Source: Naegleria gruberi
Taxonomy: Eukaryota
Assembly (NCBI GenBank): GCA_000004985.1
Contig: GG738851.1
Length of the DNA: 64,000 nt
Direction: 5' to 3' (one strand)
Of the stretch, positions 1,500-56,832 are shown one piece after another (within the stretch, counting starts at the first letter, position 1; each line of letters starts with the position of its first letter). A program made the translations under genes and the position numbers. Under the pieces are notes generated by a model. That model had not been told where the DNA came from and ran no database searches. It worked only from the letters and a program-made list of their open reading frames with translations.

Positions 1500-2663
1500 T
1501 CAACACAACATTGCCGGCTGCAACATTCGAATAGTTGTGTGTGGTGCAGTTGAAACTGTATTCGAAACTGTTGAAGAATCCTTGTTTCTCCCAACACTGT
1601 GATTCACCACTGTTGAACCAACACAAACCAGATGTTTCACCCTCGCCGATAACATCTTCATCTCTTCATATCCAATTTTACAGTAAGAAAGGTTTAAATT
1701 GATTAATTTGTTTAGGTGGAAACTTTCAGCAATGAATTGTGAGCTTTCTGGACCTAATTTACAAAAGGTCAGGTTTAAATTGGTCAGATTGGAAAGGTAG
1801 GGACTAGAAGATAATTGTTTTGTACCATTATCAGTAATTTCACAATGAGAAAGGTCTAGGTGAATTATATTCGAAAGGTTTCGGCTATTGGACAAGGATT
1901 TGATTCCTTCAAGACCAACTTGGGAGAAAGTTAGATCGAGATGAGTTAGTTGTGTAATGAATTGACTTTGGGAAAGTTGTTTGGCGCCTTCATCTCCTAC
2001 CAAACAGTTTCGTAAATTGAGAGAAAGTAGACGAAAGAAATTTGGAGATGAAGATAAATGATAGAGAGCTTCAGGAGTAAGAGAACAATCGCATAGATCC
2101 AATACTTTCAGATGGGAAAAGTTTGTTGATTGGCAAAGTAATTTGACTCCATCTACACCTATCAAACAACCAGAAAGAATTAGAGACGAAAGTAAACGAA
2201 TGTTTGGACTATCTGCAAGAATTTTGATTTCTTGAGAGGTTACTCTGCATCGAGTTAAATTCAAGTGTTGAAGAGATTTCATTGATGGAGAGGATGAAAT
2301 TAATTCCAAGGAGTTTCCAATAATTGGGACGAAACTGAAATCTAACCTTTGTATACGAAGACAAGTATCAAATCTTTCACTTTTCAAAGTTTCCTCGAAT
2401 ATACTTGCTGCTCTCCTTGTTTTCACTCTAATAGAGAATGGTACTTTCCAACAAGATTCGTACCATTGTTTCGAAATTAAACTACACTTTCCAATAATTA
2501 TTTCAGATGGAATATACTTCAATATTTCAATAATAATTTCATCAGGAATATCAATCAAAACCTGATAATTCCTCTGATAGCTCTTTGTTTGTTGTTGATC
2601 AACAACATGTTTCGAATAACATTGATCCATTTCGTATGATGTTTTCTTTACCAAGTGCATCAA
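1500..2663 (-). CDS. F-box / leucine-rich-repeat protein
   Basis: ATG at 2663 (MMHLVK). N-terminal F-box-like segment IIIEILKYIPSEIIIGKCSLISKQWYE. Repeated LRR units of the cysteine-containing LRR type (LDLSHCEITDNGTKQL, LNLTFCKLGPES, LDLCDCSLTPEAL). Single long ORF. Confidence 0.6.
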   Translation of the reverse strand: MMHLVKKTSYEMDQCYSKHVVDQQQTKSYQRNYQVLIDIPDEIIIEILKYIPSEIIIGKCSLISKQWYESCWKVPFSIRVKTRRAASIFEETLKSERFDTCLRIQRLDFSFVPIIGNSLELISSSPSMKSLQHLNLTRCRVTSQEIKILADSPNIRLLSSLILSGCLIGVDGVKLLCQSTNFSHLKVLDLCDCSLTPEALYHLSSSPNFFRLLSLNLRNCLVGDEGAKQLSQSQFITQLTHLDLTFSQVGLEGIKSLSNSRNLSNIIHLDLSHCEITDNGTKQLSSSPYLSNLTNLNLTFCKLGPESSQFIAESFHLNKLINLNLSYCKIGYEEMKMLSARVKHLVCVGSTVVNHSVGRNKDSSTVSNTVSTAPHTTIRMLQPAMLC

Positions 2664-6523: not shown

Positions 6524-6580
6524 CTAGCCAACCAGTAATTGATATTACATTTACATTTGATAGAAATGGAAAATCATTAT

Positions 6581-6622
6581 CTGATGTGGCTCAACGTCTG
6601 AGGGATGAGGTGTAGTAGTCAA
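6581..6622 (-). pseudogene. 5S rRNA-like relic (internally deleted fragment)
   Basis: The segment ctgatgtggctcaacgtctgagggatgaggtgtagtagtc matches two blocks of the minus-orientation 5S copies (ctgatgtggctcgacg ... gggatgaggtgcat). The ~25 nt between them are missing, and the flanks do not continue the 5S sequence. Confidence 0.3.
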
Positions 6623-7342
6623 CTGTGTAAACATATCTTATATATATTTTGTAAACACTTAATTCCATACTCGAATATTCCCTCAATAACTTGCCATTTC
6701 TTTCCTTCACCATGTGGACATGTAAATTCCAATAATGTGTCATCTACTGCATACTGAATATCCCCTTTTTTTATTCGAAACGTGAATAGGAATTTTGTGC
6801 TTACTCGCTGATTAAAAGTGCACTATTTGTCAGAAGCAGATAATTTTAGCTTATCTGTGAAGCACGTACAAATCAAGTGTGACAACTCTATTAATTGAGA
6901 AAGTTGAAACAGTGGCAGCAAACAAAACAAAATGTCAAGCGAAATCATAGCAACCAATAGCAAGAGCAGTATTCTTATTACTGGATTACAATATTACAGG
7001 ACCTCAATCTTTAAATTATGATCAAGTAGCTGAGATTATTTAGAAAGTTATTGGAAGACAAATTACTTGGGCTAGAATTGATGAAATTGACATTGGCTGG
7101 TGAGATTATTCCAATTTTATAAATTGAATGGAATGTCTGCTAATGTACATGCAGATTTTGACACTAGAAACCGAGATCTTTGGAACAATTCATTCAAGAA
7201 AATAAACATCATTTTGAATAATATGGAACAAACATGGATCTAAAATTTGATCCTCCAGATCTTCATTAATTTGAAAAAGACTTTTCAGCATCTTTAGATG
7301 ATGGTCTTATTGGTAATTGTGTCAGTATTTAACCGGTGAGAT

Positions 7343-21669: not shown

Positions 21670-23351
21670 TTATTTGAGGCACATTCTAAGAGCAAATGCA
21701 TAAGCATGTGTCAAGGGTACCAAAGAACTGAACCAACTGTAATGACCAAGATAAGGTGAAAATGAAACAATTGTACAATTGACGAAAAGGAGTACAATAA
21801 AAATAAGGAACCAAATGTAAACTTCACCATCGTGTGGGAATACATATGAATTTTCCCTCAATGCCTTTAAAAAGTAGTGCAATACTACAAAGAACATAAT
21901 AATAAAGAACAACTCCAAAGGTATGGCTGAATACATGAGATAAAAACTGCTTGTTGTAAATTCGAGTCCAAATCCTAGCAAGATCACAAATGATTCCAAT
22001 AAAAATACAAGAAAATTGATACCAAAAGCATACCACAAAGTTAGTGGAGCTTTTGATCGATTCTCCTTAATAATACCAGTCGTAATGAAACATGTAGCTA
22101 TTGGAGCAGCAAAGCAAATTACCAAAACGTACAAGAATGGTACAATCAATACATAAAACCACGAGTAGGTATAAGTCCTAGAGGGAATTCCATCATGCAC
22201 GGGATTTTCAGTGAATGGTAACAAAACATTGACAAGGGCAAGAATGGCAATTATCATGAATGAAGCAACACCACCCATCGATAACAGAGCCGCGATCCAA
22301 AATCCTTCTCTAAATTCCTTCTCCTTCAAACAATCCAAAGTAATAAAGAATAGACCAGCAATTAAACAAATAGCAAACACAAACCACAAAGGTATGAATG
22401 AAAAAACTTGCCATCTCACACCAATAGCATTGTAAACCAATTGATCGACAGCATCTGTTATACCAGTCATGATAAAAAAGAGCAGGAATGAAAAATACAG
22501 AACTGATGAAGCACCAATAATAAATCTCCTAGTATTTGCTCTAAATTTCTCATGATATTTGGCCATAAATTCTCTAATTTTCTTTTCCTTTGCAATTCTT
22601 CTTCTTTCCTTATCTTGTTTCTTACCATGTTTAATGTGAAGTCCTCTCAAAGTTCCCACACTGATAATCTTGTTATCATTGTCAAATGTAACATAATCCT
22701 CCACTTTAATTATTTCAATAAATCCAAAAATTCAAAAATCAACAAACCTTTTGGTGGATGAGGTGGAGGTGGAATTGGTTTTCCATAAGGTTTCATATAA
22801 CTAATTCTCGTTCTCTCGCTCACATAGTAATTAATTTGTTCCGAATAAATCTTTTTAAACAGTTCAACACAATTCGAATACCACAACAAGTCATGCTTTG
22901 ATGATTCGTACCAATCTCTATTTACAAGTGAGGCCTCACTCAATGTTTTTTGATCTAGCCAGAGGAACATTTCTACCAAAACTTCTCCTGGAATATTATT
23001 CCATGTGTAATTTACATGAAATCCCGACAATATATTATCAGAATCGTTATTTTTCGAATGATTTGATCGAATGACAACTGAATTGTCCTTTCCAGTTGCT
23101 GATGGTGATTGAACAGCAACTACTACAGCATTATTTGAAATGGAAGCAGAAGGAGATGTTGAATTCATCATCTGCTGCTGCTCTTGTTGATTATCCAATC
23201 CGAGTGTTATCTGTTGATTATCAACAGCATCCTTATTTTCTTGTCCTTCTTCACCATCCATTTGTGGTGGTGCATTATCCTTCTGACTTTCCAAATCAAC
23301 AAATTGATCATCGGAAGTCATCTTGTCTAAAAAACCCAAATAATCAACCAA
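21670..23351 (-). CDS. F-box-like domain fused to a polytopic (about 8 TM) membrane domain; join(23351..22748, 22703..21670)
   Basis: The upstream ORF (22710..23351) carries an F-box-like segment (IPGEVLVEMFLWLDQKTLSEASLVNRDWYE). It ends ...PPPPHPPKG, followed by a GTTTGT donor. A 44-nt intron (22747..22704, ending AG) joins in frame (K-V-EDYVTFDND) to the downstream ORF. That ORF encodes many hydrophobic helices (FIIGASSVLYFSFLLFFIMTGI, FVFAICLIAGLFFITL, FMIIAILALVNVLL, ...). Confidence 0.55.
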
Positions 23352-34818: not shown

Positions 34819-37467
34819 ATGTATGATCATTGGGTAGGTATACCTATTCTACTACTCTCTTCACTATCATTACGCTAGAAATACGACAGAGATCAAGTCC
34901 TCCGAATAACTCTCAACAATGGCTTTTATCTACAATATGCTGATGATAAATTTAAAAAAGATAAAGATCTTGTGTTACAGGTAATTTCTCGGTACGGAAG
35001 GGGACTCGAATTCGTAGACGAATCCCTGAAAAAAGATAAGGAGGTTGTTCTTGCAGCTGTCAAACACGATGGCTTTGCACTTAAATTTGCTCATCATTCA
35101 TTGAAAAAAGATAGAACAATAGTTTGGGAAGCAATTTCACAAAATGGAAATGCTCTTCGTTTCGCTGATGCAATATTTCAAAATGATAGAGAAATTGTGT
35201 TGCGATCGGTGAGAATCGCTGGCGGAGCATTACAACATGCCAGTGATTTGTTAAAAGTGGATCATCTAGTTGTGTTTGAAGCAGTCAAACAGAGTGGACA
35301 TGCTATTCAATTTGCGCACTCATCATTTAAGAAAGATAGAGAGCTGGCATTGAAATGTTGTAAAATAGGAGATAATTCATTTGAATATGTAGATGGATCA
35401 TTCAAGAAAGAAAGAGAGTTCGTATTGGAATCTGTTAAAAGTTTTGGAACAGCTCTTTTGCATGTACATGAACCATTTAAAAAAGATAAGGAAATAGTTT
35501 TTGAAGCTATCAAACAAAGTCCAAGTGCATTCTTCAGTGCTGATGATTCATTTAGGAAGAAAGACAGAGAATTTATATTGAAAGTCGCCAAGTGTGATGA
35601 GGGTGCAATTTATTGGACAGATTATTCTATCCAATCAGAGACATTATTTGCATTTATCTACTCGTTTAGCTTGAAAGCTGATCAAAAAGAATGGATAAAG
35701 GGTCTAAATTCAACGCTATACGAAAATATCGAGAAAGCCAAGGCTGAATCAATTCAGACATGTTTATCTAGAGATGTTATTGGAATGTATTCGAACAAGT
35801 TTTCTGAGGAAGCTTATTTATTTTGTTGCTTGGCTTTACCAGACACTTATCCTAAACCTGTAGGAAATATATTCAATTTCAATCAATCGTATTCTAGTCA
35901 ATTTGTGGAAAAACTGATTATTGTACAAATTTTGAAGAGTATTAGTTCATTGGATTCAACTTGCAGCGCATCTGTCAGTAAGACAATAGATTATTACTTG
36001 TTTTTATTCAAGTTAGACAGATTTTTAGACGAATCTAATGTTAAATCAACCAATTATTCCAAGCTTGGATCTGTTGTTATGGAAATTTCATCAAAGTTTG
36101 AAACATCATATTACTCAAAAACTGATATTGGAATTGCATTATTATTTTTCAAAGATTGGATCAGCAGATTTAAACATTTCGATGATCACCGAGAGACATT
36201 AGCTCAATACAAGCAAGTTGGAGGTGATTTCTCAAAAATTATGCGAGTTATCACGCAATTTCATTACTATTCAAATAATGATTATGATGTTGTTTCAGTA
36301 CTAGGATATGGAGGCGAAGGAGCTGCTTTTAAAGCATTTAGTAAGAAATTGAATGAATTGGTGGCCATCAAAATCAAATTTGAGAAGGAAGATGAAAAAA
36401 GCAGCGAGGAAAGAATTCAATTTATCAGGAGAAATGATATTGAAGGTAAAATCAAATGCCACGATTGTAATTTGATTGATGGTTACATGTATTCTATCAT
36501 GGAATTGGGAGAAGAGACATTATCTGATTATATTGATAGAAATAGAACTTATTATCAAAATAAGCAATATTCGAAAGAGCATTTTATTGAGATTCTAATA
36601 ATATTTAACAAGATTTTACAAGCAGTCAAATCAATTCATGACCATAATATTTCACATAGAGATTTGGATCCTAAAAATGTAGTCAAAGTGAAAGATCGTT
36701 ACAAAATTATTGACTTTGATATTGCAAAGGTCATCAAAACAGGTAATTCTATCACCCTAACTGTTGGAAAATTTGCATACATGTCACCAGAAGTGTCACA
36801 CGACAATTACAGCGAGGAAATGCTCAATAACGAAGACAAGCTTTCAAATAATATTGGAAATGTCACAACATCATGTGATATCTTCTCATTGGGATGTATT
36901 TTATTGAAACTCTTAACAAACTGTAGTTTGAGATTGGATAGAGAATTCGTAACTGTTATCAACAACTTTGAGAAATATGATGGAAATTATCAATACTTTA
37001 CAGATAATGGATTTTATTTCTATTCAATATTGATTGATTTGTTAAAGGAAAAGAAATTACATCACGCCATTCAACAGACAGTGAACCAGTTCGTGGATCC
37101 TGAATGGGAAGTTAATGAAATACTTATCAAGTGTTTAATAACAATGATTCAAAAGGATCCAACTCAAAGATTAGATTGTTTCATACATAGTAATGTCCTT
37201 ACAAAGGTAATCGATTTTTTAAAAGGTGAAAACAACATGACACTTAACCAAATTCTCAAAGATATGGAAAATTATAAGGAAATTAATGAATTGAAGGATA
37301 TTCCACAAATTATTGAAGAAAATGAGCAGCTTAAGAATGAAAATGTTGAGCTGAAGAGAATGATCGAAAATCTAGAAGAGAAAAGTCGAAAGGATAAGGA
37401 AGAAAATCAAATGCTAATGAAGAAGTTAGAGGAAATGGAGAAACGAACCAAAGAGCTTGAAAAATAA
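34819..37467 (+). CDS. DUF4116-like (~38-aa) repeat array fused to a degenerate protein-kinase domain and a C-terminal coiled coil; join(34819..34833, 34879..37467)
   Basis: Mini-exon ATGTATGATCATTGG with a GTAGGT donor and a 45-nt intron ending AG at 34877-34878. The frame with the alternative GTG start at 34972 stays open upstream and encodes further repeat units, so the gene starts upstream of that GTG. About 6 tandem units follow with the pattern DKEVVLAAVKHDGFALKFA / DREIVLRSVRIAGGALQHA / DRELALKCCKIG... Kinase motifs present: GYGGEGAAF (Gly loop) and VAIKIK (VAIK). The catalytic loop is HRDLDPKN, where Asp replaces the usual Lys. DFD replaces DFG. YMSPE is present. The C-terminus is an E/K-rich coiled coil. 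Confidence 0.65.
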
Positions 37468-37596
37468 ATTCATAAACTGGAATAAATAGAGAATTCAATC
37501 AAATTTCTAATAATAACTAAAGGGTATTTAAAATAATAATTATGACAACAAATTGGTGAACCGTGCTATCACGTTTTTTAATAACACAACAAAAAA

Positions 37597-38364
37597 ATGA
37601 ACAAAATCTCAAGAGGGTTAATCACCACAGGTAACAAGAGATTCTTCTCATCCACTTGCATGAACAAAAGTAAACCAATTGTTGAATTCAAAGAAATTCA
37701 GAAGGGACAAATATGGTTAATTGACAATTTATTTTCTGAAGAGGAATGCAAATCCTATATTGAATTGGCTGAATCGCAAGGATTTAATGATGCACCAGTC
37801 ACAGTTGGTGCTAATACTTTCAAAATGATGACAGATTACAGAAATAATAAGAGAGTAATTTTGGATGATCCTAACTTAGCTCAACAAATCTACACGAAAG
37901 TGAAAGATTTCGTTCCAGAATTTGCAAGTGAACTGAATGTCAATTCAAGAAAGATCAATACAGAATTCTTTCAAAAGTGTGGAGTGAACGAAAGATTCAG
38001 ATTTTACAGATATACCTCAGATGAGTATTTTAAAGCTCACTTTGATGGAAACTTTGCTAGAAACAACGTAGAGTGCACTCTTGAGAATGGAAAGACCTAC
38101 CTCTGTGAAGAATCTTCCTTCATAACCATGCTCATCTATTTAAACACTTTAGAGAAGGGAGGTGAAACAAATTTTGTGAATCCAGGTGGAGAAGAAAGAA
38201 TTCTTCACTCTGTGAATCCAAAAACAGGAAGAGTGCTATTGTTTGTCCATCGTTTGTTGCATGAAGCTGAACCAGTTGGAGAACCTTGGCAATTCAAATA
38301 TGTGTTGAGAACAGATATCATGTATAGAAGACCAATGGGTCTATTTTCATCATTTCATTGGTAA
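37597..38364 (+). CDS. Prolyl-4-hydroxylase-like 2OG-Fe(II) oxygenase (255 aa), possible N-terminal targeting peptide
   Basis: Motifs KAHFDG (HxD), GGETNF and LLFVHRLLHEAEPV...KYVLRTDIMY (distal His and the Lys/Arg of the 2OG-binding strand). The N-terminus MNKISRGLITTGNKRFFSS is basic and hydroxylated, like a presequence. Confidence 0.7.
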   Translation: MNKISRGLITTGNKRFFSSTCMNKSKPIVEFKEIQKGQIWLIDNLFSEEECKSYIELAESQGFNDAPVTVGANTFKMMTDYRNNKRVILDDPNLAQQIYTKVKDFVPEFASELNVNSRKINTEFFQKCGVNERFRFYRYTSDEYFKAHFDGNFARNNVECTLENGKTYLCEESSFITMLIYLNTLEKGGETNFVNPGGEERILHSVNPKTGRVLLFVHRLLHEAEPVGEPWQFKYVLRTDIMYRRPMGLFSSFHW

Positions 38365-53150: not shown

Positions 53151-55187
53151 ATGCTGCTTTCTCAAAGCAGTGAAACATCAAAAAACAACCAACAGCTAAT
53201 GAAGAGTCAGCAGAAGGTAGCCGATACTTGTTCAATACTTACGAGGAGGTTAGGACTTTCTAGTAGTAGTAACAATGGCAGAATATTGATTGGTGGCAGA
53301 GAATGTTGGATTAATTCTACATTTTCTTATTCGGATGAGAGTTTTATTGTGAATGATGATGAAGAGGATTGTACAGTTGTGAATGAACAAAGTAACACAG
53401 CCTTGGCTAGTAGTAGCAGTCAAGATTTGCATCAGGGTAGTGATGATCATATTACGGAATCGAATATGGTATTCGATGATGTTTCTCCTAATCAATTTAA
53501 TGATGAGAATAATCAAATCACAACAAGTCAGAGTCGAGGTTCTACTACACAACATGAAACATTGGACGAATTCCCAGAAATTCAAACTATTCCAAATCAA
53601 ACTGCTGGGACTTTGAAAACATCATTGGAACCATCAAGGAATAGTCAAAGCCTTTTTCTTGACGACTTGAACGATCATCACAGTCACATGATGCAATTAG
53701 TTAAAGGAGTTGATGCTGTTGCAAGAAAAAACTTTAATTTAGCACCATCTAATTTACCAGATCAACACTATTTACATCACTACATTCCTGAAAATGATGA
53801 TTCACTTTCAACAACAAAGGTTAGAACATTAAGTGATCAAGGAAGTGAGTTTAGTTCCGAACGAGGTGATATTGATAATGAGTGGTTTTTCAATTCTTGT
53901 TCAAATGTGAATGATAGTTATTTCCTTCCAGATGAGCTAATTTACAAAATTTTAACATATCTTGACTTTGATGATGTTGTTCTAAAGTCCTCTCTTGTGA
54001 ATAGACAGTTTTTCAGTGTCAGTAATTGTGGAGGTTTTTGGATTCAATTTATCAAAACAAGAAAATGTGAAGACACTGTCAATATTCTTTCCTATTATCA
54101 ATACGAGTTCCATTCAAATCATATAGTCAAACAAATCAAGCATGAACCATCCGAAGAAGTTACCCTTCAAGAAAATGATGATGCCACTACTCAAAATACA
54201 GACAATCCACCAAATACTCCGAGCGATGAAATTGTCATTCCATCTCAACAAGATTCGAGTAATTATGATCCTGCTAATCATTTAACTATTTATAGACCTA
54301 TTTTATTAAGTTATTTATACCATAAGAGAAACTTGAAGAAATGGTTTTTCTTTACAGAGGCCAACTATTACTTACTATTTTTGCTTCCGTTTGGAATTAT
54401 GACATTTTTATTCTTATCTTCATACGTTTTCCCAGTCTTTCCTCCTTTTTACAAGCTCAACTTGTTTTCCTTTTCAGCAGCTCCTTCCAAATTCTTTGCT
54501 CCCTCTCGAAGAAATATTTATATTGAAGGTATTGGAGAAAATTTTTCACAGTGGACTCTTGGAATATTTGGAGCTTCAATTCTTGTCATTATCATTTCAC
54601 TGCTATTGATACGGCCCCTCACAAAATCAGCTCTTAGACAATATTCCTTGTCTATCCAAAATGAGGATCAACTCTCCTTCACCAAGTCTATTATAACCAA
54701 AACAAAATTGGATTATTCCTCTCTGATACCACACTCAACAGAAATGTTACCAGTTTCTCTTAGAAAGAAATTAGTAAGAGACATTTTAGGACATGAAAAA
54801 TTATTTACAAAAGAACATGTTGTGAGGTGCATGGTTCTCATTCCAGTTGTATTATGTTATATCACAACTGTTTTGAAAAACTTTGTCTATATTCCATACC
54901 TTTCTGAAACCTATCACACCTTATTGAGCTTACCTGGATATTTAGTTTTGGCATATCTCATCAAGACACATTGGTATATGGTATTCAAGATTCATGGTTT
55001 CTTCTCCTTACTTGTTTGTTACGCTTGTTTCCACTTTGTACTAAATCAACTCAAGTGGGATGTTCTCATTCGACCAATGTTTTACTTCCTTTCACAGGTA
55101 TTTGGTGTGTGGTGCTACATTATTCTCAACTTTTGGGTATTGGGAGGTCCAGACAATACTCAAGGAATTCCATGTGCCAACAGTTAA
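53151..55187 (+). CDS. F-box-like domain fused to a polytopic membrane domain (second member of this architecture in the window)
   Basis: First ATG at 53151. Acidic, Ser-rich N-terminal half. F-box-like segment LPDELIYKILTYLDFDDVVLKSSLVNRQFFSV. At least 7 hydrophobic helices follow (YYLLFLLPFGIMTFLFLSSYVF, WTLGIFGASILVIIISLLLI, CMVLIPVVLCYITTVL, LLSLPGYLVLAYLI, GFFSLLVCYACFHFVL, VFGVWCYIILNFWVLG). Confidence 0.55.
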   Translation: MLLSQSSETSKNNQQLMKSQQKVADTCSILTRRLGLSSSSNNGRILIGGRECWINSTFSYSDESFIVNDDEEDCTVVNEQSNTALASSSSQDLHQGSDDHITESNMVFDDVSPNQFNDENNQITTSQSRGSTTQHETLDEFPEIQTIPNQTAGTLKTSLEPSRNSQSLFLDDLNDHHSHMMQLVKGVDAVARKNFNLAPSNLPDQHYLHHYIPENDDSLSTTKVRTLSDQGSEFSSERGDIDNEWFFNSCSNVNDSYFLPDELIYKILTYLDFDDVVLKSSLVNRQFFSVSNCGGFWIQFIKTRKCEDTVNILSYYQYEFHSNHIVKQIKHEPSEEVTLQENDDATTQNTDNPPNTPSDEIVIPSQQDSSNYDPANHLTIYRPILLSYLYHKRNLKKWFFFTEANYYLLFLLPFGIMTFLFLSSYVFPVFPPFYKLNLFSFSAAPSKFFAPSRRNIYIEGIGENFSQWTLGIFGASILVIIISLLLIRPLTKSALRQYSLSIQNEDQLSFTKSIITKTKLDYSSLIPHSTEMLPVSLRKKLVRDILGHEKLFTKEHVVRCMVLIPVVLCYITTVLKNFVYIPYLSETYHTLLSLPGYLVLAYLIKTHWYMVFKIHGFFSLLVCYACFHFVLNQLKWDVLIRPMFYFLSQVFGVWCYIILNFWVLGGPDNTQGIPCANS

Positions 55188-55416: not shown

Positions 55417-56832
55417 TTGTGCGGAGGGGTTTTCATCTTAAAAGAAGAGAAGGTTTTTAGGAGTGTATCATCTTCTCTGTTGATAATAATTGCCATCATC
55501 ATGATTGTAATGGTGAATTTTTGTGATTTTCTTCGGGCTGATGATACAGTGACATCCGAAGGTATAATACAGGTTCAGGTAATTTCGAGACATTGCGATC
55601 GTATGCCAATATCACCTCTGACTATTCCGAAGGATCCTGTTGATTTCCCCAAGTTGGCTGATTTAAATTTGGGAGATTTAACTGGGTTAGGACAACACCA
55701 ATGTAATCAACTTGGTGATGTTATCTATGATAGATATATTGATGTAAATTCAAAGACTAAAATCAAGGGAATTGTTCCACATTATGAATCAAAACAGTAT
55801 AGTTTTAGATCGACGGATTTGGATAGAACATTGATGAGTATGTGGTCCATTTCAATGGGCTTATTTAAAGAAGGAACTGGAAGAAGAGCTATCGTTAATT
55901 ATAAGGATGCTCATGATATGGGACGGGAAGTTTTTGCATTACCGAACGGAACACAGGCAGTTCCTATTCATACTGTTTCTGAGGATATGGACTCTTTGTT
56001 ACTTGGATTTTCATTTTGTAATACAGTTTTGAATAGAATGAGTATTATAAGATCATCAAAGGGATACATCGATTTTTTCAAAAAGCATAGGGTAGTCATT
56101 GATAAATTATATAACGAAACAGGATGGAAAGCACAACCAAATGATGGAAATATTGGAGTTTTATTTGATTTACTGACAGTGCAGAGATCACATGATTTAT
56201 TATCAATTAGATGGGTTAATGAAAATTGGGAAGTCATAGATTCCATTAGAAATAATTTTCTTTTAATGATCTATAATTATAATGTCATTGGAAAAGAAGG
56301 AAGTAGTGAATTGATCAAGACTCTCAAATCAAACATGGACAGTACAACCAAATACAAGTATATTCACTACAGTGCCCACGACACAACTCTTCAATCTCTC
56401 GCTGCTAGTTTGAAATTAACAAATGATTATCCATTTTTGGGATATCAACCAAATTATGGTGCCTGGTTGGCCTTGGAATTACACGAAATGACTGACGGTA
56501 CTGCAGCTGTCAGAATTGTCCACGGAAAGCAGTACAATGATACAAGTACACCTCTCAAATTAACCTCCTTGGGCTGCAATACAGAATTTTGTCCCCTCAC
56601 CGAGTTTGAAAAGCATATTACTCGAGACTCAATAGTTACCAATTGGTGTAGAGCTTGTGATAACTCTCAAAGAAATATTTGTGCTTCTGAATATCTGAAA
56701 AGTTCAGAAGAGTCATATATTGCCTTCCTAGTTTCAACACCAACATTGGCTTTCACAAATGCTATTACCCTTATTGCCTTGGTGTTTGCTTGTGCTAGAT
56801 CAAGAAGACAAAAGTATAAAGAAATGGATTAA
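55417..56832 (+). CDS. Histidine acid phosphatase (branch 2 histidine phosphatase), membrane-anchored
   Basis: Catalytic RHCDRMP motif (the RHGxRxP signature with Cys at the Gly position). Downstream HD dipeptide in YSAHDTTLQSLAASL. Hydrophobic N-terminus (signal). C-terminal TM (FLVSTPTLAFTNAITLIALVFACA) plus a basic tail. The ORF begins at a non-ATG start; the true initiator or a 5' mini-exon is unresolved. Confidence 0.7.
   Translation: MCGGVFILKEEKVFRSVSSSLLIIIAIIMIVMVNFCDFLRADDTVTSEGIIQVQVISRHCDRMPISPLTIPKDPVDFPKLADLNLGDLTGLGQHQCNQLGDVIYDRYIDVNSKTKIKGIVPHYESKQYSFRSTDLDRTLMSMWSISMGLFKEGTGRRAIVNYKDAHDMGREVFALPNGTQAVPIHTVSEDMDSLLLGFSFCNTVLNRMSIIRSSKGYIDFFKKHRVVIDKLYNETGWKAQPNDGNIGVLFDLLTVQRSHDLLSIRWVNENWEVIDSIRNNFLLMIYNYNVIGKEGSSELIKTLKSNMDSTTKYKYIHYSAHDTTLQSLAASLKLTNDYPFLGYQPNYGAWLALELHEMTDGTAAVRIVHGKQYNDTSTPLKLTSLGCNTEFCPLTEFEKHITRDSIVTNWCRACDNSQRNICASEYLKSSEESYIAFLVSTPTLAFTNAITLIALVFACARSRRQKYKEMD

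What the first reader, a model, noticed from the sequence alone, without database searches (positions are those of the whole stretch)
21670..23351. Membrane-embedded F-box proteins: F-box N-terminus fused to a 7-8 TM domain, present twice (here and 53151..55187)
F-box proteins are classically soluble substrate receptors of SCF ligases. Two unrelated-looking loci here encode an F-box-like motif (...SLVNR-W/F...) followed by a polytopic membrane domain. In the first gene the two parts are joined by a demonstrable 44-nt GTTTGT...AG intron.

Seeing the same architecture twice in 64 kb argues for a real family. Its members could act as membrane-resident SCF receptors, for example for ERAD-like or receptor-turnover roles, or as Skp1-tethered transporters.
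Basis: partly seen in the sequence, partly recalled or inferred. Interest (0 to 1): 0.5.

Follow-up and report, generated by a model that had tools for sequence, protein, structure and literature searches.

The report
Membrane-embedded F-box proteins in Naegleria
Two unrelated Naegleria gruberi genes each join a cytosolic F-box, the handle that plugs a protein into SCF ubiquitin ligases, to a multi-pass membrane domain of no known family; the design is real and conserved but its function is untested.

Summary
The window is Naegleria gruberi.

**Gene 1** (minus strand, CDS 23321..21670, one 44-nt GT..AG intron) encodes 535 aa:
- a variable N-terminus and an F-box (Pfam F-box-like, 31.5 bits against a 24.3 cut-off);
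- a conserved linker of about 100 residues;
- eight hydrophobic helices.

**Gene 2** (53151..55187, NAEGRDRAFT_78467) has a borderline F-box and about six membrane helices.

The fusion is not a gene-model artefact:
- N. lovaniensis reads across the N. gruberi intron site in one exon.
- A distant metagenomic homologue encodes F-box plus membrane domain in one uninterrupted ORF.
- All seven full-length members of the gene 1 family pass the F-box cut-off. An exhaustive HMMER search of 1.84 billion proteins found only 16 hits.

The two genes share only the F-box, so they are two families. Gene 2 has about 6 helices, not 7-8.

The membrane domains match no Pfam family, no solved structure and no fold.

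For gene 1:
- charge distribution puts the F-box in the cytosol;
- conservation concentrates on the far (exoplasmic) side of the membrane;
- the eight helices look like a 4+4 duplication.

Best reading: membrane-integral SCF substrate receptors. This is inferred, not shown. I rate it a new variant of a known kind, of moderate interest.

The parts
22748..23321 (-). Gene 1, exon 1 (aa 1-191 plus the first base of codon 192): variable N-terminus, F-box, conserved helix, PPPP linker
   Evidence: ORF and translation. The first ATG is at 23321. aa 96-191 are 73-90% identical among three Naegleria species, against 22% for aa 1-95.
22869..23003 (-). Gene 1 F-box (aa 107-151, WNNIPGEVLVEMFLWLDQKTLSEASLVNRDWYESSKHDLLWYSNC)
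   Evidence: PF12937 scores 31.5 bits against a 24.3 cut-off. The family profile hits solved F-box domains (FBXW21, GID2, Skp2, beta-TrCP) with E down to 6e-6, through this region only. Coordinates were checked.
22704..22747 (-). Gene 1 intron, 44 nt, GTTTGT...TTAAAG, phase 1; contains an in-frame stop if read through
   Evidence: Removing it restores the frame. The junction aligns without a gap to orthologues. It is identical in a second strain. The N. lovaniensis exon L001:6593-6778 reads straight across the site. There is no transcript evidence.
21670..22703 (-). Gene 1, exon 2 (aa 192-535 plus stop): beta-hairpin, basic juxtamembrane helix, 8 membrane helices
   Evidence: 344-codon ORF. 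It is 60-68% identical to the N. lovaniensis and N. fowleri proteins. The two substitutions relative to strain L005 are both synonymous in this frame.
22528..22701 (-). Gene 1 hairpin (VEDYVTFDNDNKIISVGTLRGLHIKHG) and Lys/Arg-rich helix leading into TM1
   Evidence: The hairpin is 91% identical among Naegleria species. A long helix running into TM1 is the best-scored part of the AF2 model, at pLDDT 73-78. There are 10 K/R in the 25 residues before TM1.
21673..22527 (-). Gene 1 membrane domain (aa 251-535), 8 hydrophobic segments, probably a 4+4 internal duplication; motifs IPLW, LNxxLLP, YxxSWFxVLIP, WFSSLxPLT
   Evidence: Hydropathy. K+R split of 133 inside against 17 outside for an N-in, C-in topology. 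The conservation bias toward the exoplasmic halves has p=7e-10. TM1-4 against TM5-8 gives hhalign E 2.4e-4, with controls at 0.34-0.64. No Pfam, PDB or fold match.
53151..55187 (+). Gene 2 = NAEGRDRAFT_78467, single exon, 678 aa: variable N-terminus, conserved block, divergent F-box, about 6 membrane helices
   Evidence: 100% identical over 100% of its length to the N. gruberi protein. Orthologues exist in N. fowleri, N. lovaniensis and one environmental contig.
53925..54044 (+). Gene 2 F-box-like segment (aa 259-298, LPDELIYKILTYLDFDDVVLKSSLVNRQFFSVSNCGGFWI)
   Evidence: PF12937 22.2 bits and PF00646 20.1 bits, both just under their cut-offs. Orthologues score 24.7 and 24.9 (PF12937) and 21.4 (PF00646), which pass. 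The family profile finds no solved F-box. The region is 77% identical within the family.
54360..55151 (+). Gene 2 membrane region (aa 404-667): 2 helices, a 65-residue basic loop, then 4 helices
   Evidence: Hydropathy. K+R split of 64 against 26 for an N-in topology. No similarity to the gene 1 domain. No Pfam or PDB match.

Best explanation
Gene 1 and gene 2 are genuine, selectively maintained members of two separate heterolobosean families of polytopic membrane proteins. Each carries an N-terminal cytosolic F-box. (Gene 1 family: Naegleria and Willaertia, plus unassigned environmental relatives.)

Proposed mechanism, all inferred:
- The F-box binds Skp1 and so docks Cul1-Rbx1-E2 at a membrane.
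- The membrane bundle takes the place that LRR or WD40 domains hold in soluble F-box proteins. It selects the client, which could be a neighbouring membrane protein or a lipid or ligand state.
- For gene 1, the conserved surface on the exoplasmic side of the 4+4 helix bundle is the likely recognition or sensing site.
- The conserved hairpin and the long basic helix running into TM1 act as the rigid stalk that orients the F-box relative to the membrane.

Shown by sequence analysis: the architecture, its conservation, its restricted distribution and its novelty.
Predicted: the topology.
Inferred only: Skp1 binding, ligase assembly and the clients.
For: **The architecture is real**
- The spliced gene 1 protein aligns end to end with single gene models of 514 and 512 aa in N. 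lovaniensis and N. fowleri, and 496 aa in Willaertia magna.
- N. lovaniensis has its introns elsewhere and reads the N. gruberi junction in one exon.
- P0023 (476 aa) and P0015 (427 aa) encode F-box plus membrane domain as single uninterrupted ORFs on metagenomic contigs.

**The F-box is real and under selection**
- All 7 full-length gene 1 family members pass the PF12937 cut-off, at 24.8-48.4 bits.
- The family profile hits solved Skp1-bound F-box domains with E down to 6e-6.
- Across the family the F-box is 41% identical, against 30% for the membrane region. The Naegleria N-termini are only 22% identical.

**The F-box faces the cytosol**
- The K+R count is 133 in the predicted cytosolic loops against 17 in the exoplasmic ones.

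**A functional site in the bundle**
- Conservation is 0.63 in the exoplasmic halves against 0.43 in the cytosolic halves, p=7e-10.

**Gene 2**
- It shows the same logic independently.

**Known membrane-associated F-box proteins**
- Those found in the literature search use lipid anchors. TgFBXO1 has no predicted transmembrane domain but has a consensus N-myristoylation site (PMC6685633).
Against: - There is no experimental evidence of any kind here: no transcript, no Skp1 interaction, no localisation.
- The gene 2 F-box is marginal. It is under the Pfam cut-off in N. gruberi, Phe replaces the canonical Trp, and its family profile finds no solved F-box.
- The gene 1 intron has a non-consensus 5' site (GTTTGT). 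All three introns of the N. lovaniensis orthologue start GTAAGT.
- Structure models were poor (pLDDT 46.6 and 59.8). Nothing about the fold or a binding pocket is established.
- The topology comes only from hydropathy and the positive-inside rule.
- Some F-box proteins work with Skp1 outside SCF ligases (yeast Rcy1, Ctf13; from general knowledge). An F-box therefore does not prove ligase function.
Confidence: 0.55

Rival explanations
1. Skp1-binding but not a ubiquitin ligase. The F-box tethers Skp1 to the membrane in a cullin-free complex that acts in trafficking or assembly, as yeast Rcy1-Skp1 does in endosomal recycling.
For: - The F-box is conserved, and that is all such complexes need.
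- No lysine-rich or degron features point to particular clients.
- Non-SCF Skp1 complexes are established for other F-box proteins (general knowledge).
Against: - Most F-box proteins studied act in SCF ligases.
- The gene 1 family F-box profile resembles those of canonical SCF receptors such as Skp2, beta-TrCP and FBXW7.
- Nothing here discriminates between the two readings.
Confidence: 0.15
2. The membrane domain is the working part (a channel, transporter or receptor). The F-box mainly controls the protein's own abundance through SCF auto-ubiquitination, or Skp1-dependent stability.
For: - The 8-helix, 4+4 repeat bundle has its conserved surface on the exoplasmic side, which is what a transporter or receptor would look like.
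- F-box proteins are commonly turned over by auto-ubiquitination (general knowledge).
Against: - No similarity to any transporter, channel or GPCR family in Pfam, in PDB sequences or by fold.
- No conserved charged residue lies inside the helices across the family (one search list).
- Two unrelated membrane domains acquired the same F-box, which fits a receptor-module logic better.
Confidence: 0.15
3. The F-box-like segments are relics or look-alikes that no longer bind Skp1. The proteins are simply lineage-specific membrane proteins with a helical N-terminal domain.
For: - The gene 2 segment is sub-threshold in N. gruberi and lacks the canonical Trp.
- F-box is a short, degenerate motif.
Against: - Gene 1 passes the curated threshold, as do all six other full-length family members, with scores up to 48.4 bits.
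- The segment is the best-conserved part across a family that is otherwise about 25-30% identical.
- The family profile retrieves only F-box domains from the PDB.
Confidence: 0.1
4. Gene-model artefact: in N. gruberi the F-box ORF and the membrane ORF are separate genes or a pseudogene, and the 44-nt 'intron' is an insertion.
For: - No N. gruberi protein model for this gene was found in the protein collections. Only a raw 211-aa exon 1 ORF from a metagenome turned up.
- The 5' splice site is non-consensus.
- No transcript data were available.
Against: - The exon 2 ORF is 344 codons and 60-68% identical to orthologues. Its only two differences from a second strain are synonymous.
- Exon 2 has no ATG near its start. 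The mechanical start is a GTG that corresponds to Val192 of the spliced protein.
- 44 nt with GT..AG is the only in-frame join. A 49-nt alternative acceptor breaks the frame; I checked this by hand on the sequence.
- Orthologues and distant homologues are contiguous across this point.
Confidence: 0.03

Closest known systems
Canonical soluble F-box proteins (FBXL, FBXW, FBXO; e.g. Skp2, beta-TrCP, FBXW7)
   Same: An N-terminal F-box of about 45 residues with the Leu/Ile-Pro...Leu...Val-x-Lys/Arg-x-Trp pattern. It is followed by a linker and a larger C-terminal module. The gene 1 family profile retrieves these proteins' F-boxes from the PDB.
   Different: The C-terminal module is not LRR, WD40 or any soluble domain. 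It is an 8-helix (gene 1) or about 6-helix (gene 2) integral membrane domain with no Pfam match. A classical F-box/LRR gene sits in the same window for contrast (1500..2663).
Lipid-anchored or peripherally membrane-associated F-box proteins (Toxoplasma TgFBXO1, N-myristoylated; Legionella AnkB, farnesylated; mammalian FBXL2 with a CaaX box)
   Same: An F-box protein held at a membrane, where it can act on membrane-proximal clients. TgFBXO1 is described as membrane-associated with no transmembrane domain and a consensus N-myristoylation site (PMC6685633). AnkB is described as an F-box effector in the abstract of PMC2790608 (listed); its farnesylation, and FBXL2, are recalled from memory.
   Different: Attachment here is through many membrane-spanning helices that make up half the protein, not a lipid. 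Gene 1 has no Gly2 and no CaaX box (it ends ...RMCLK). The membrane part is itself the conserved, presumably functional, module.
Transmembrane RING-type E3 ligases (Hrd1, Doa10/MARCH6, MARCH family, RNF proteins)
   Same: The same working logic: ubiquitin-ligase machinery coupled to a polytopic membrane domain that selects membrane clients. Humans have 49 RING finger proteins predicted to contain transmembrane domains (PMC4021871 abstract).
Seven-transmembrane receptors (GPCRs, microbial rhodopsins)
   Same: A helix bundle of similar size. These were the top, non-significant, Foldseek matches to the low-confidence model.
   Different: All matches have E above 0.3 and TM-scores near 0.2. No 7TM Pfam family matches. 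Gene 1 has eight segments arranged as a 4+4 repeat.

Membership tests
F-box protein superfamily | F-box domain matching a curated profile above its threshold | tested here: met
   Gene 1 scores 31.5 bits on PF12937 against a 24.3 cut-off. The six other full-length family members score 24.8-48.4 bits. The family profile hits solved F-boxes with E down to 6e-6.
F-box protein superfamily (gene 2, 53151..55187) | F-box domain matching a curated profile above its threshold | tested here: inconclusive
   The N. gruberi copy scores 22.2 (cut-off 24.3) and 20.1 (cut-off 20.5). Orthologues pass narrowly, at 24.7, 24.9 and 21.4. The family profile finds no solved F-box. Phe replaces the canonical Trp.
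F-box protein superfamily | F-box exposed to the cytosol or nucleus, where Skp1 resides | tested here: met
   Prediction only. Positive-inside counts are 133 against 17 for gene 1 and 64 against 26 for gene 2, assuming an N-terminus-in topology.
SCF substrate receptor | Direct binding to Skp1 through the F-box | not testable with these tools
   Needs pull-down or two-hybrid assays with Naegleria Skp1, or a confident co-fold. No complex prediction tool was available.
SCF substrate receptor | Assembly with Cul1/Rbx1 and ubiquitination of a bound client | not testable with these tools
   Experimental only.
Canonical F-box subfamilies (FBXL, FBXW) | C-terminal LRR or WD40 substrate-binding domain | tested here: not met
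   There are no Pfam hits beyond the F-box at E up to 10 (gene 1, gene 2) or up to 1 across both families. The C-terminal half is hydrophobic helices.
Transmembrane RING E3 ligases | RING / RING-CH zinc-finger domain | tested here: not met
   No RING family appears in the Pfam scans.
Lipid-anchored F-box proteins | N-terminal Met-Gly myristoylation site or C-terminal CaaX box | tested here: not met
   Gene 1 starts MTSDD and ends RMCLK, with Cys at -3, and the Cys is not conserved in orthologues. Gene 2 has a conserved near-C-terminal Cys (PCANS, PCAN, PCAL) that forms a CaaX-length motif only in N. gruberi.
GPCR / rhodopsin-like 7TM | Significant sequence or fold match to a 7TM family | tested here: not met

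The most novel reading that the evidence does not exclude
The gene 1 family is a one-polypeptide transmembrane sensor and ligase adaptor. An orphan 4+4 helix bundle would read a ligand, lipid or partner on the exoplasmic or lumenal face, where its conservation is concentrated. It would pass that state through a rigid juxtamembrane stalk to an F-box, so that SCF ubiquitination in the cytosol is gated from across the membrane. That would be a class of membrane-integral cullin-RING substrate receptor not described so far. A second, unrelated membrane domain (gene 2) would have arrived at the same solution independently in the same lineage.
Probability: 0.2. Interest if true: 0.7.

Novelty: new variant of a known kind. 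Interest (0 to 1): 0.42.

Why it matters
SCF ligases are understood as soluble machines whose F-box receptors reach membrane clients from the cytosol or through lipid anchors. Membrane-integral ligases are otherwise RING-type.

A conserved family in which the substrate-receptor subunit is itself a polytopic membrane protein would add a new way of bringing cullin-RING ligases to membranes. It would also give a tractable handle on membrane-protein turnover in Naegleria, because the F-box predicts a testable partner (Skp1). The genus includes the pathogen N. fowleri, which has orthologues of both genes.

The scope is limited. The families are lineage-restricted: 16 hits in 1.84 billion representative proteins for gene 1. 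Everything beyond the architecture is inference.

A practical by-product is that gene 1 appears to be missing from the N. gruberi protein set held in the collections searched.

Tried and rejected
- **Structure prediction, 3 sequences.** AF2 on the Naegleria alignment gave pLDDT 46.6, which is unusable.
- **AlphaFold database.** The afdb50 library was not available.
- **Profile word-index search.** Searching with the 10-sequence alignment returned fewer relatives than the exhaustive HMMER run and nothing new of full length.
- **Relationship between the two membrane domains.** None was found by BLASTP, hhalign on full alignments (only the F-box aligned, E 0.022) or hhalign on the membrane regions alone (E 0.51).
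- **Possible third family member.** A weak tblastx hit of the P0023 C-terminus to window 37400..37585 (E 0.001) lies over the 3' end of a kinase gene and an intergenic stretch. I rejected it as chance.
- **N. gruberi reference annotation around gene 1.** A look-up through a neighbouring ORF led only to a metagenomic contig of a near-identical strain.
- **Literature.** Six phrases for transmembrane or membrane-anchored F-box proteins found 0 papers. Surveys of Dictyostelium and Toxoplasma F-box proteins describe no F-box protein with a transmembrane domain. A recalled lead, human TMEM183A as an F-box-like membrane protein, could only be traced to gene lists of ubiquitin-pathway screens and stays unverified.
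- **Alternative splice acceptor.** A 49-nt intron breaks the frame (checked by hand on the sequence).
Full report
**What is there**

The window is Naegleria gruberi. The second locus named in the finding (53151..55187, + strand) is 100% identical over its full length to NAEGRDRAFT_78467.

The primary locus lies on the minus strand. A 574-nt exon runs from the first ATG at 23321 to 22748. It is followed by 44 nt (22747..22704, GTTTGTTGATTTTTGAATTTTTGGATTTATTGAAATAATTAAAG) and then a 1034-nt exon (22703..21670, including the TAA stop). Removing the 44 nt joins the two ORFs in frame and gives a 535-aa protein. Read through without splicing, exon 1 stops 13 codons into the 44 nt.

**The F-box**

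- In gene 1, aa 107-151 match Pfam F-box-like (PF12937) at 31.5 bits, above the curated 24.3 cut-off.
- In gene 2, aa 259-298 score 22.2 bits (PF12937) and 20.1 bits (PF00646), both just below the cut-offs.
- The three gene 2 orthologues each narrowly pass one of the two models, at 24.7, 24.9 and 21.4 bits.
- A profile of the gene 1 family retrieves only F-box domains from the PDB: FBXW21, GID2, Skp2, beta-TrCP, FBXW8, FBXL5 and others, with E down to 6e-6.
- A profile of the gene 2 family retrieves none.

I therefore treat the gene 1 F-box as established by sequence, and the gene 2 F-box as probable but divergent. In gene 2 a Phe replaces the canonical Trp.

**The membrane parts**

Family-averaged hydropathy gives eight segments for gene 1, seven strong plus a weaker C-terminal one. 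Gene 2 has six, arranged as two helices, a 65-residue basic loop and four more helices. '7-8 TM' fits gene 1 and overstates gene 2.

Lys+Arg counts in the loops are 133 against 17 (seven gene 1 family members) and 64 against 26 (four gene 2 family members). Both favour a topology with the N-terminus, and hence the F-box, in the cytosol.

**Is the fusion real?**

- The spliced gene 1 protein aligns end to end with single gene models in N. lovaniensis (C9374_004334, 514 aa) and N. fowleri (512 aa). There is no gap at the junction: PPPPHPPK|VEDYVTFDNDNK against PPPPKKPLVEDYVTFDNDNK.
- The N. lovaniensis gene has three GTAAGT introns at other positions. It reads the N. gruberi junction within one continuous exon, L001:6593-6778.
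- An exhaustive HMMER search of 1.84 billion representative proteins found only 16 hits. Among them are Willaertia magna KAL9650460.1 (496 aa) and two metagenomic proteins, P0015 (427 aa) and P0018 (398 aa). A third, P0023 (476 aa), came from the cluster of hit P0017.
- Every full-length member has the F-box in front of the same membrane domain.
- P0023 and P0015 are each a single uninterrupted ORF on their contig. In those organisms no splicing is needed to join the two halves.
- A 99%-identical environmental N. gruberi strain carries the identical 44 nt. Its two indels relative to the window are both 3 nt. Its two exon 2 substitutions are both synonymous in the proposed frame.

What is missing is transcript evidence. 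The 5' splice site GTTTGT is also not the GTAAGT seen in the orthologue. The intron is inferred, though strongly.

**Selection**

Among the three Naegleria species, identity by region in gene 1 is:

| Region | Identity |
|---|---|
| N-terminal 95 residues | 22% |
| F-box region | 73% |
| Following helix | 90% |
| Hairpin VEDYVTFDNDNKIISVGTLRGLHIKHG | 91% |
| Membrane region | 68% |

Across all seven full-length family members the F-box is the best-conserved block, at 41% against 30% for the membrane region. Gene 2 shows the same pattern: F-box 77%, last four helices 69%, N-terminus 18%. The F-box has been kept wherever the membrane domain has been kept.

**One family or two?**

Two. The proteins share only the F-box (BLASTP E 0.05 over 39 residues; hhalign aligns only the F-box). 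The membrane regions compared alone give E 0.51.

A third, classical F-box/LRR gene in the same window (1500..2663, minus strand) has SLISKQWYES.

Both genes have orthologues on the same N. lovaniensis contig, with locus tags 29 apart. Their proximity is conserved, but they are not paralogues as far as can be detected.

**What the membrane domains are**

Unknown. There is no Pfam family at permissive thresholds and no PDB sequence match outside the F-box. The AF2 models were poor (pLDDT 46.6 with 3 sequences, 59.8 with 10). The fold searches returned only non-significant or generic helix-bundle matches, and I draw nothing from them.

Two features of the gene 1 domain did emerge from the alignment.

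- **Asymmetric conservation.** Given the predicted topology, conservation is strongly concentrated in the exoplasmic halves of the helices. The mean majority fraction is 0.63 against 0.43, Mann-Whitney p = 7e-10. The family motifs IPLW, LNxxLLP, YxxSWFxVLIP and WFSSLLPLT all sit at that face.
- **Internal repeat.** Helices 1-4 align with helices 5-8 (hhalign E 2.4e-4 over 93 columns). Motifs pair up: IPLW with AIP, LN..LP with IN..S.P, and Y.SWF.VLIP with Y.WFSSLLPLT. Reversed-sequence and gene 2 controls give E 0.34-0.64. This points to a 4+4 internal duplication. The evidence is moderate.

**How it most likely works**

My best reading is a membrane-integral SCF substrate receptor. I put this at about 0.55. 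I put the reality of the architecture itself at about 0.95.

- The cytosolic F-box binds Skp1 and brings Cul1-Rbx1-E2 to the membrane.
- The helix bundle replaces the LRR or WD40 module as the specificity element.
- In gene 1, the conserved hairpin and the long Lys/Arg-rich helix that runs into TM1 form the stalk between them. That helix is the best-scored part of the model.

Everything after 'the F-box is there and faces the cytosol' is inference. The rivals are:

- a cullin-free Skp1 complex, like yeast Rcy1;
- a transporter or receptor that uses the F-box to control its own turnover;
- a relic F-box, which is more plausible for gene 2 than for gene 1;
- a gene-model artefact, now very unlikely.

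**Comparison with what is known**

Membrane-associated F-box proteins that I could document use lipid anchors. TgFBXO1 has no transmembrane domain and a consensus N-myristoylation site (PMC6685633). AnkB and FBXL2 are prenylated (from memory). Membrane-integral E3s are RING-type, with 49 human RING finger proteins predicted to contain transmembrane domains (PMC4021871).

Six phrase searches for transmembrane or membrane-anchored F-box proteins found no paper. Surveys of Dictyostelium and Toxoplasma F-box proteins describe none with a transmembrane domain. The library is incomplete, so this is absence of evidence only.

Databases already label the orthologues 'F-box domain-containing protein' automatically. 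No N. gruberi model of gene 1 was found in the collections, only a raw exon 1 ORF from a metagenome.

**Verdict**

This is a new variant of a known kind: F-box proteins whose specificity module is an orphan polytopic membrane domain, present as two independent families in Naegleria. Interest is moderate at 0.42. The design is unusual, conserved and directly testable through Skp1, but it is lineage-restricted and has no functional evidence.

Noticed in passing
window 1500..2663 (-): A third F-box gene in the window, of the classical soluble type: F-box (PF00646, 31.2 bits) followed by leucine-rich repeats (LRR_6, 63.7 bits). That makes three F-box genes in 64 kb, and it shows that the 'SL(V/I)x(R/K)xW' motif is generic.
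   Followed up: partly
window 21670..23321 (-): No N. gruberi protein model for gene 1 was returned by either protein search, although its neighbour-species orthologues and gene 2 were. Only a 211-aa unspliced exon 1 ORF from an ENA metagenome (P0008) was found. The gene may be missing from the reference annotation.
   Followed up: partly
window 22704..22747 vs L001 6423..6494, 6536..6592, 6778..6839: Intron positions differ completely between orthologues. N. lovaniensis has three GTAAGT introns, after EQID, after RIGY and after IRQ(I/M). N. gruberi has none of these and has a single GTTTGT intron at a fourth site. Raw ORF fragments P0009 and P0012 from other Naegleria-like contigs read into the first of the N. 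lovaniensis-type introns (EQIDCK..., EQINCK...). This points to intron loss and gain within the genus.
   Followed up: partly
window 55170..55184 (gene 2 C-terminus): A Cys three or four residues from the C-terminus is invariant in the gene 2 family (GIPCANS, GIPCAN, GIPCAN, DPCAL). It has CaaX length only in N. gruberi. It may be a lipidation site or may be structural.
   Followed up: no
L004 and L005 (ENA ERZ929261, run ERR1078381): A public metagenome contains contigs 99% identical to this N. gruberi region, including the hydantoinase/oxoprolinase neighbour. An environmental N. gruberi strain was therefore sequenced there.
   Followed up: partly
window 37597..38364 (+): A 255-aa protein with a 2OG-Fe(II) oxygenase domain (PF13640, 34.3 bits) and an N-terminus that looks like a targeting peptide. 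I noted it because Skp1 prolyl hydroxylases belong to this superfamily. No link to the F-box genes was tested.
   Followed up: no
L002 (JGI metagenome 3300037860, contig Ga0401357_00486), 6001..7431 and neighbours: The contig carrying the distant gene 1 homologue P0023 is gene-dense, 39% GC and made of uninterrupted ORFs with eukaryote-type domains (UCH, rhomboid, synapsin). It comes from an unidentified, apparently intron-poor protist. There is no synteny with Naegleria beyond the gene itself.
   Followed up: partly
window 55417..56832 (+): Immediately downstream of gene 2 lies a histidine acid phosphatase (His_Phos_2, 69.3 bits). It has an N-terminal hydrophobic segment and a C-terminal membrane anchor.
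   Followed up: no
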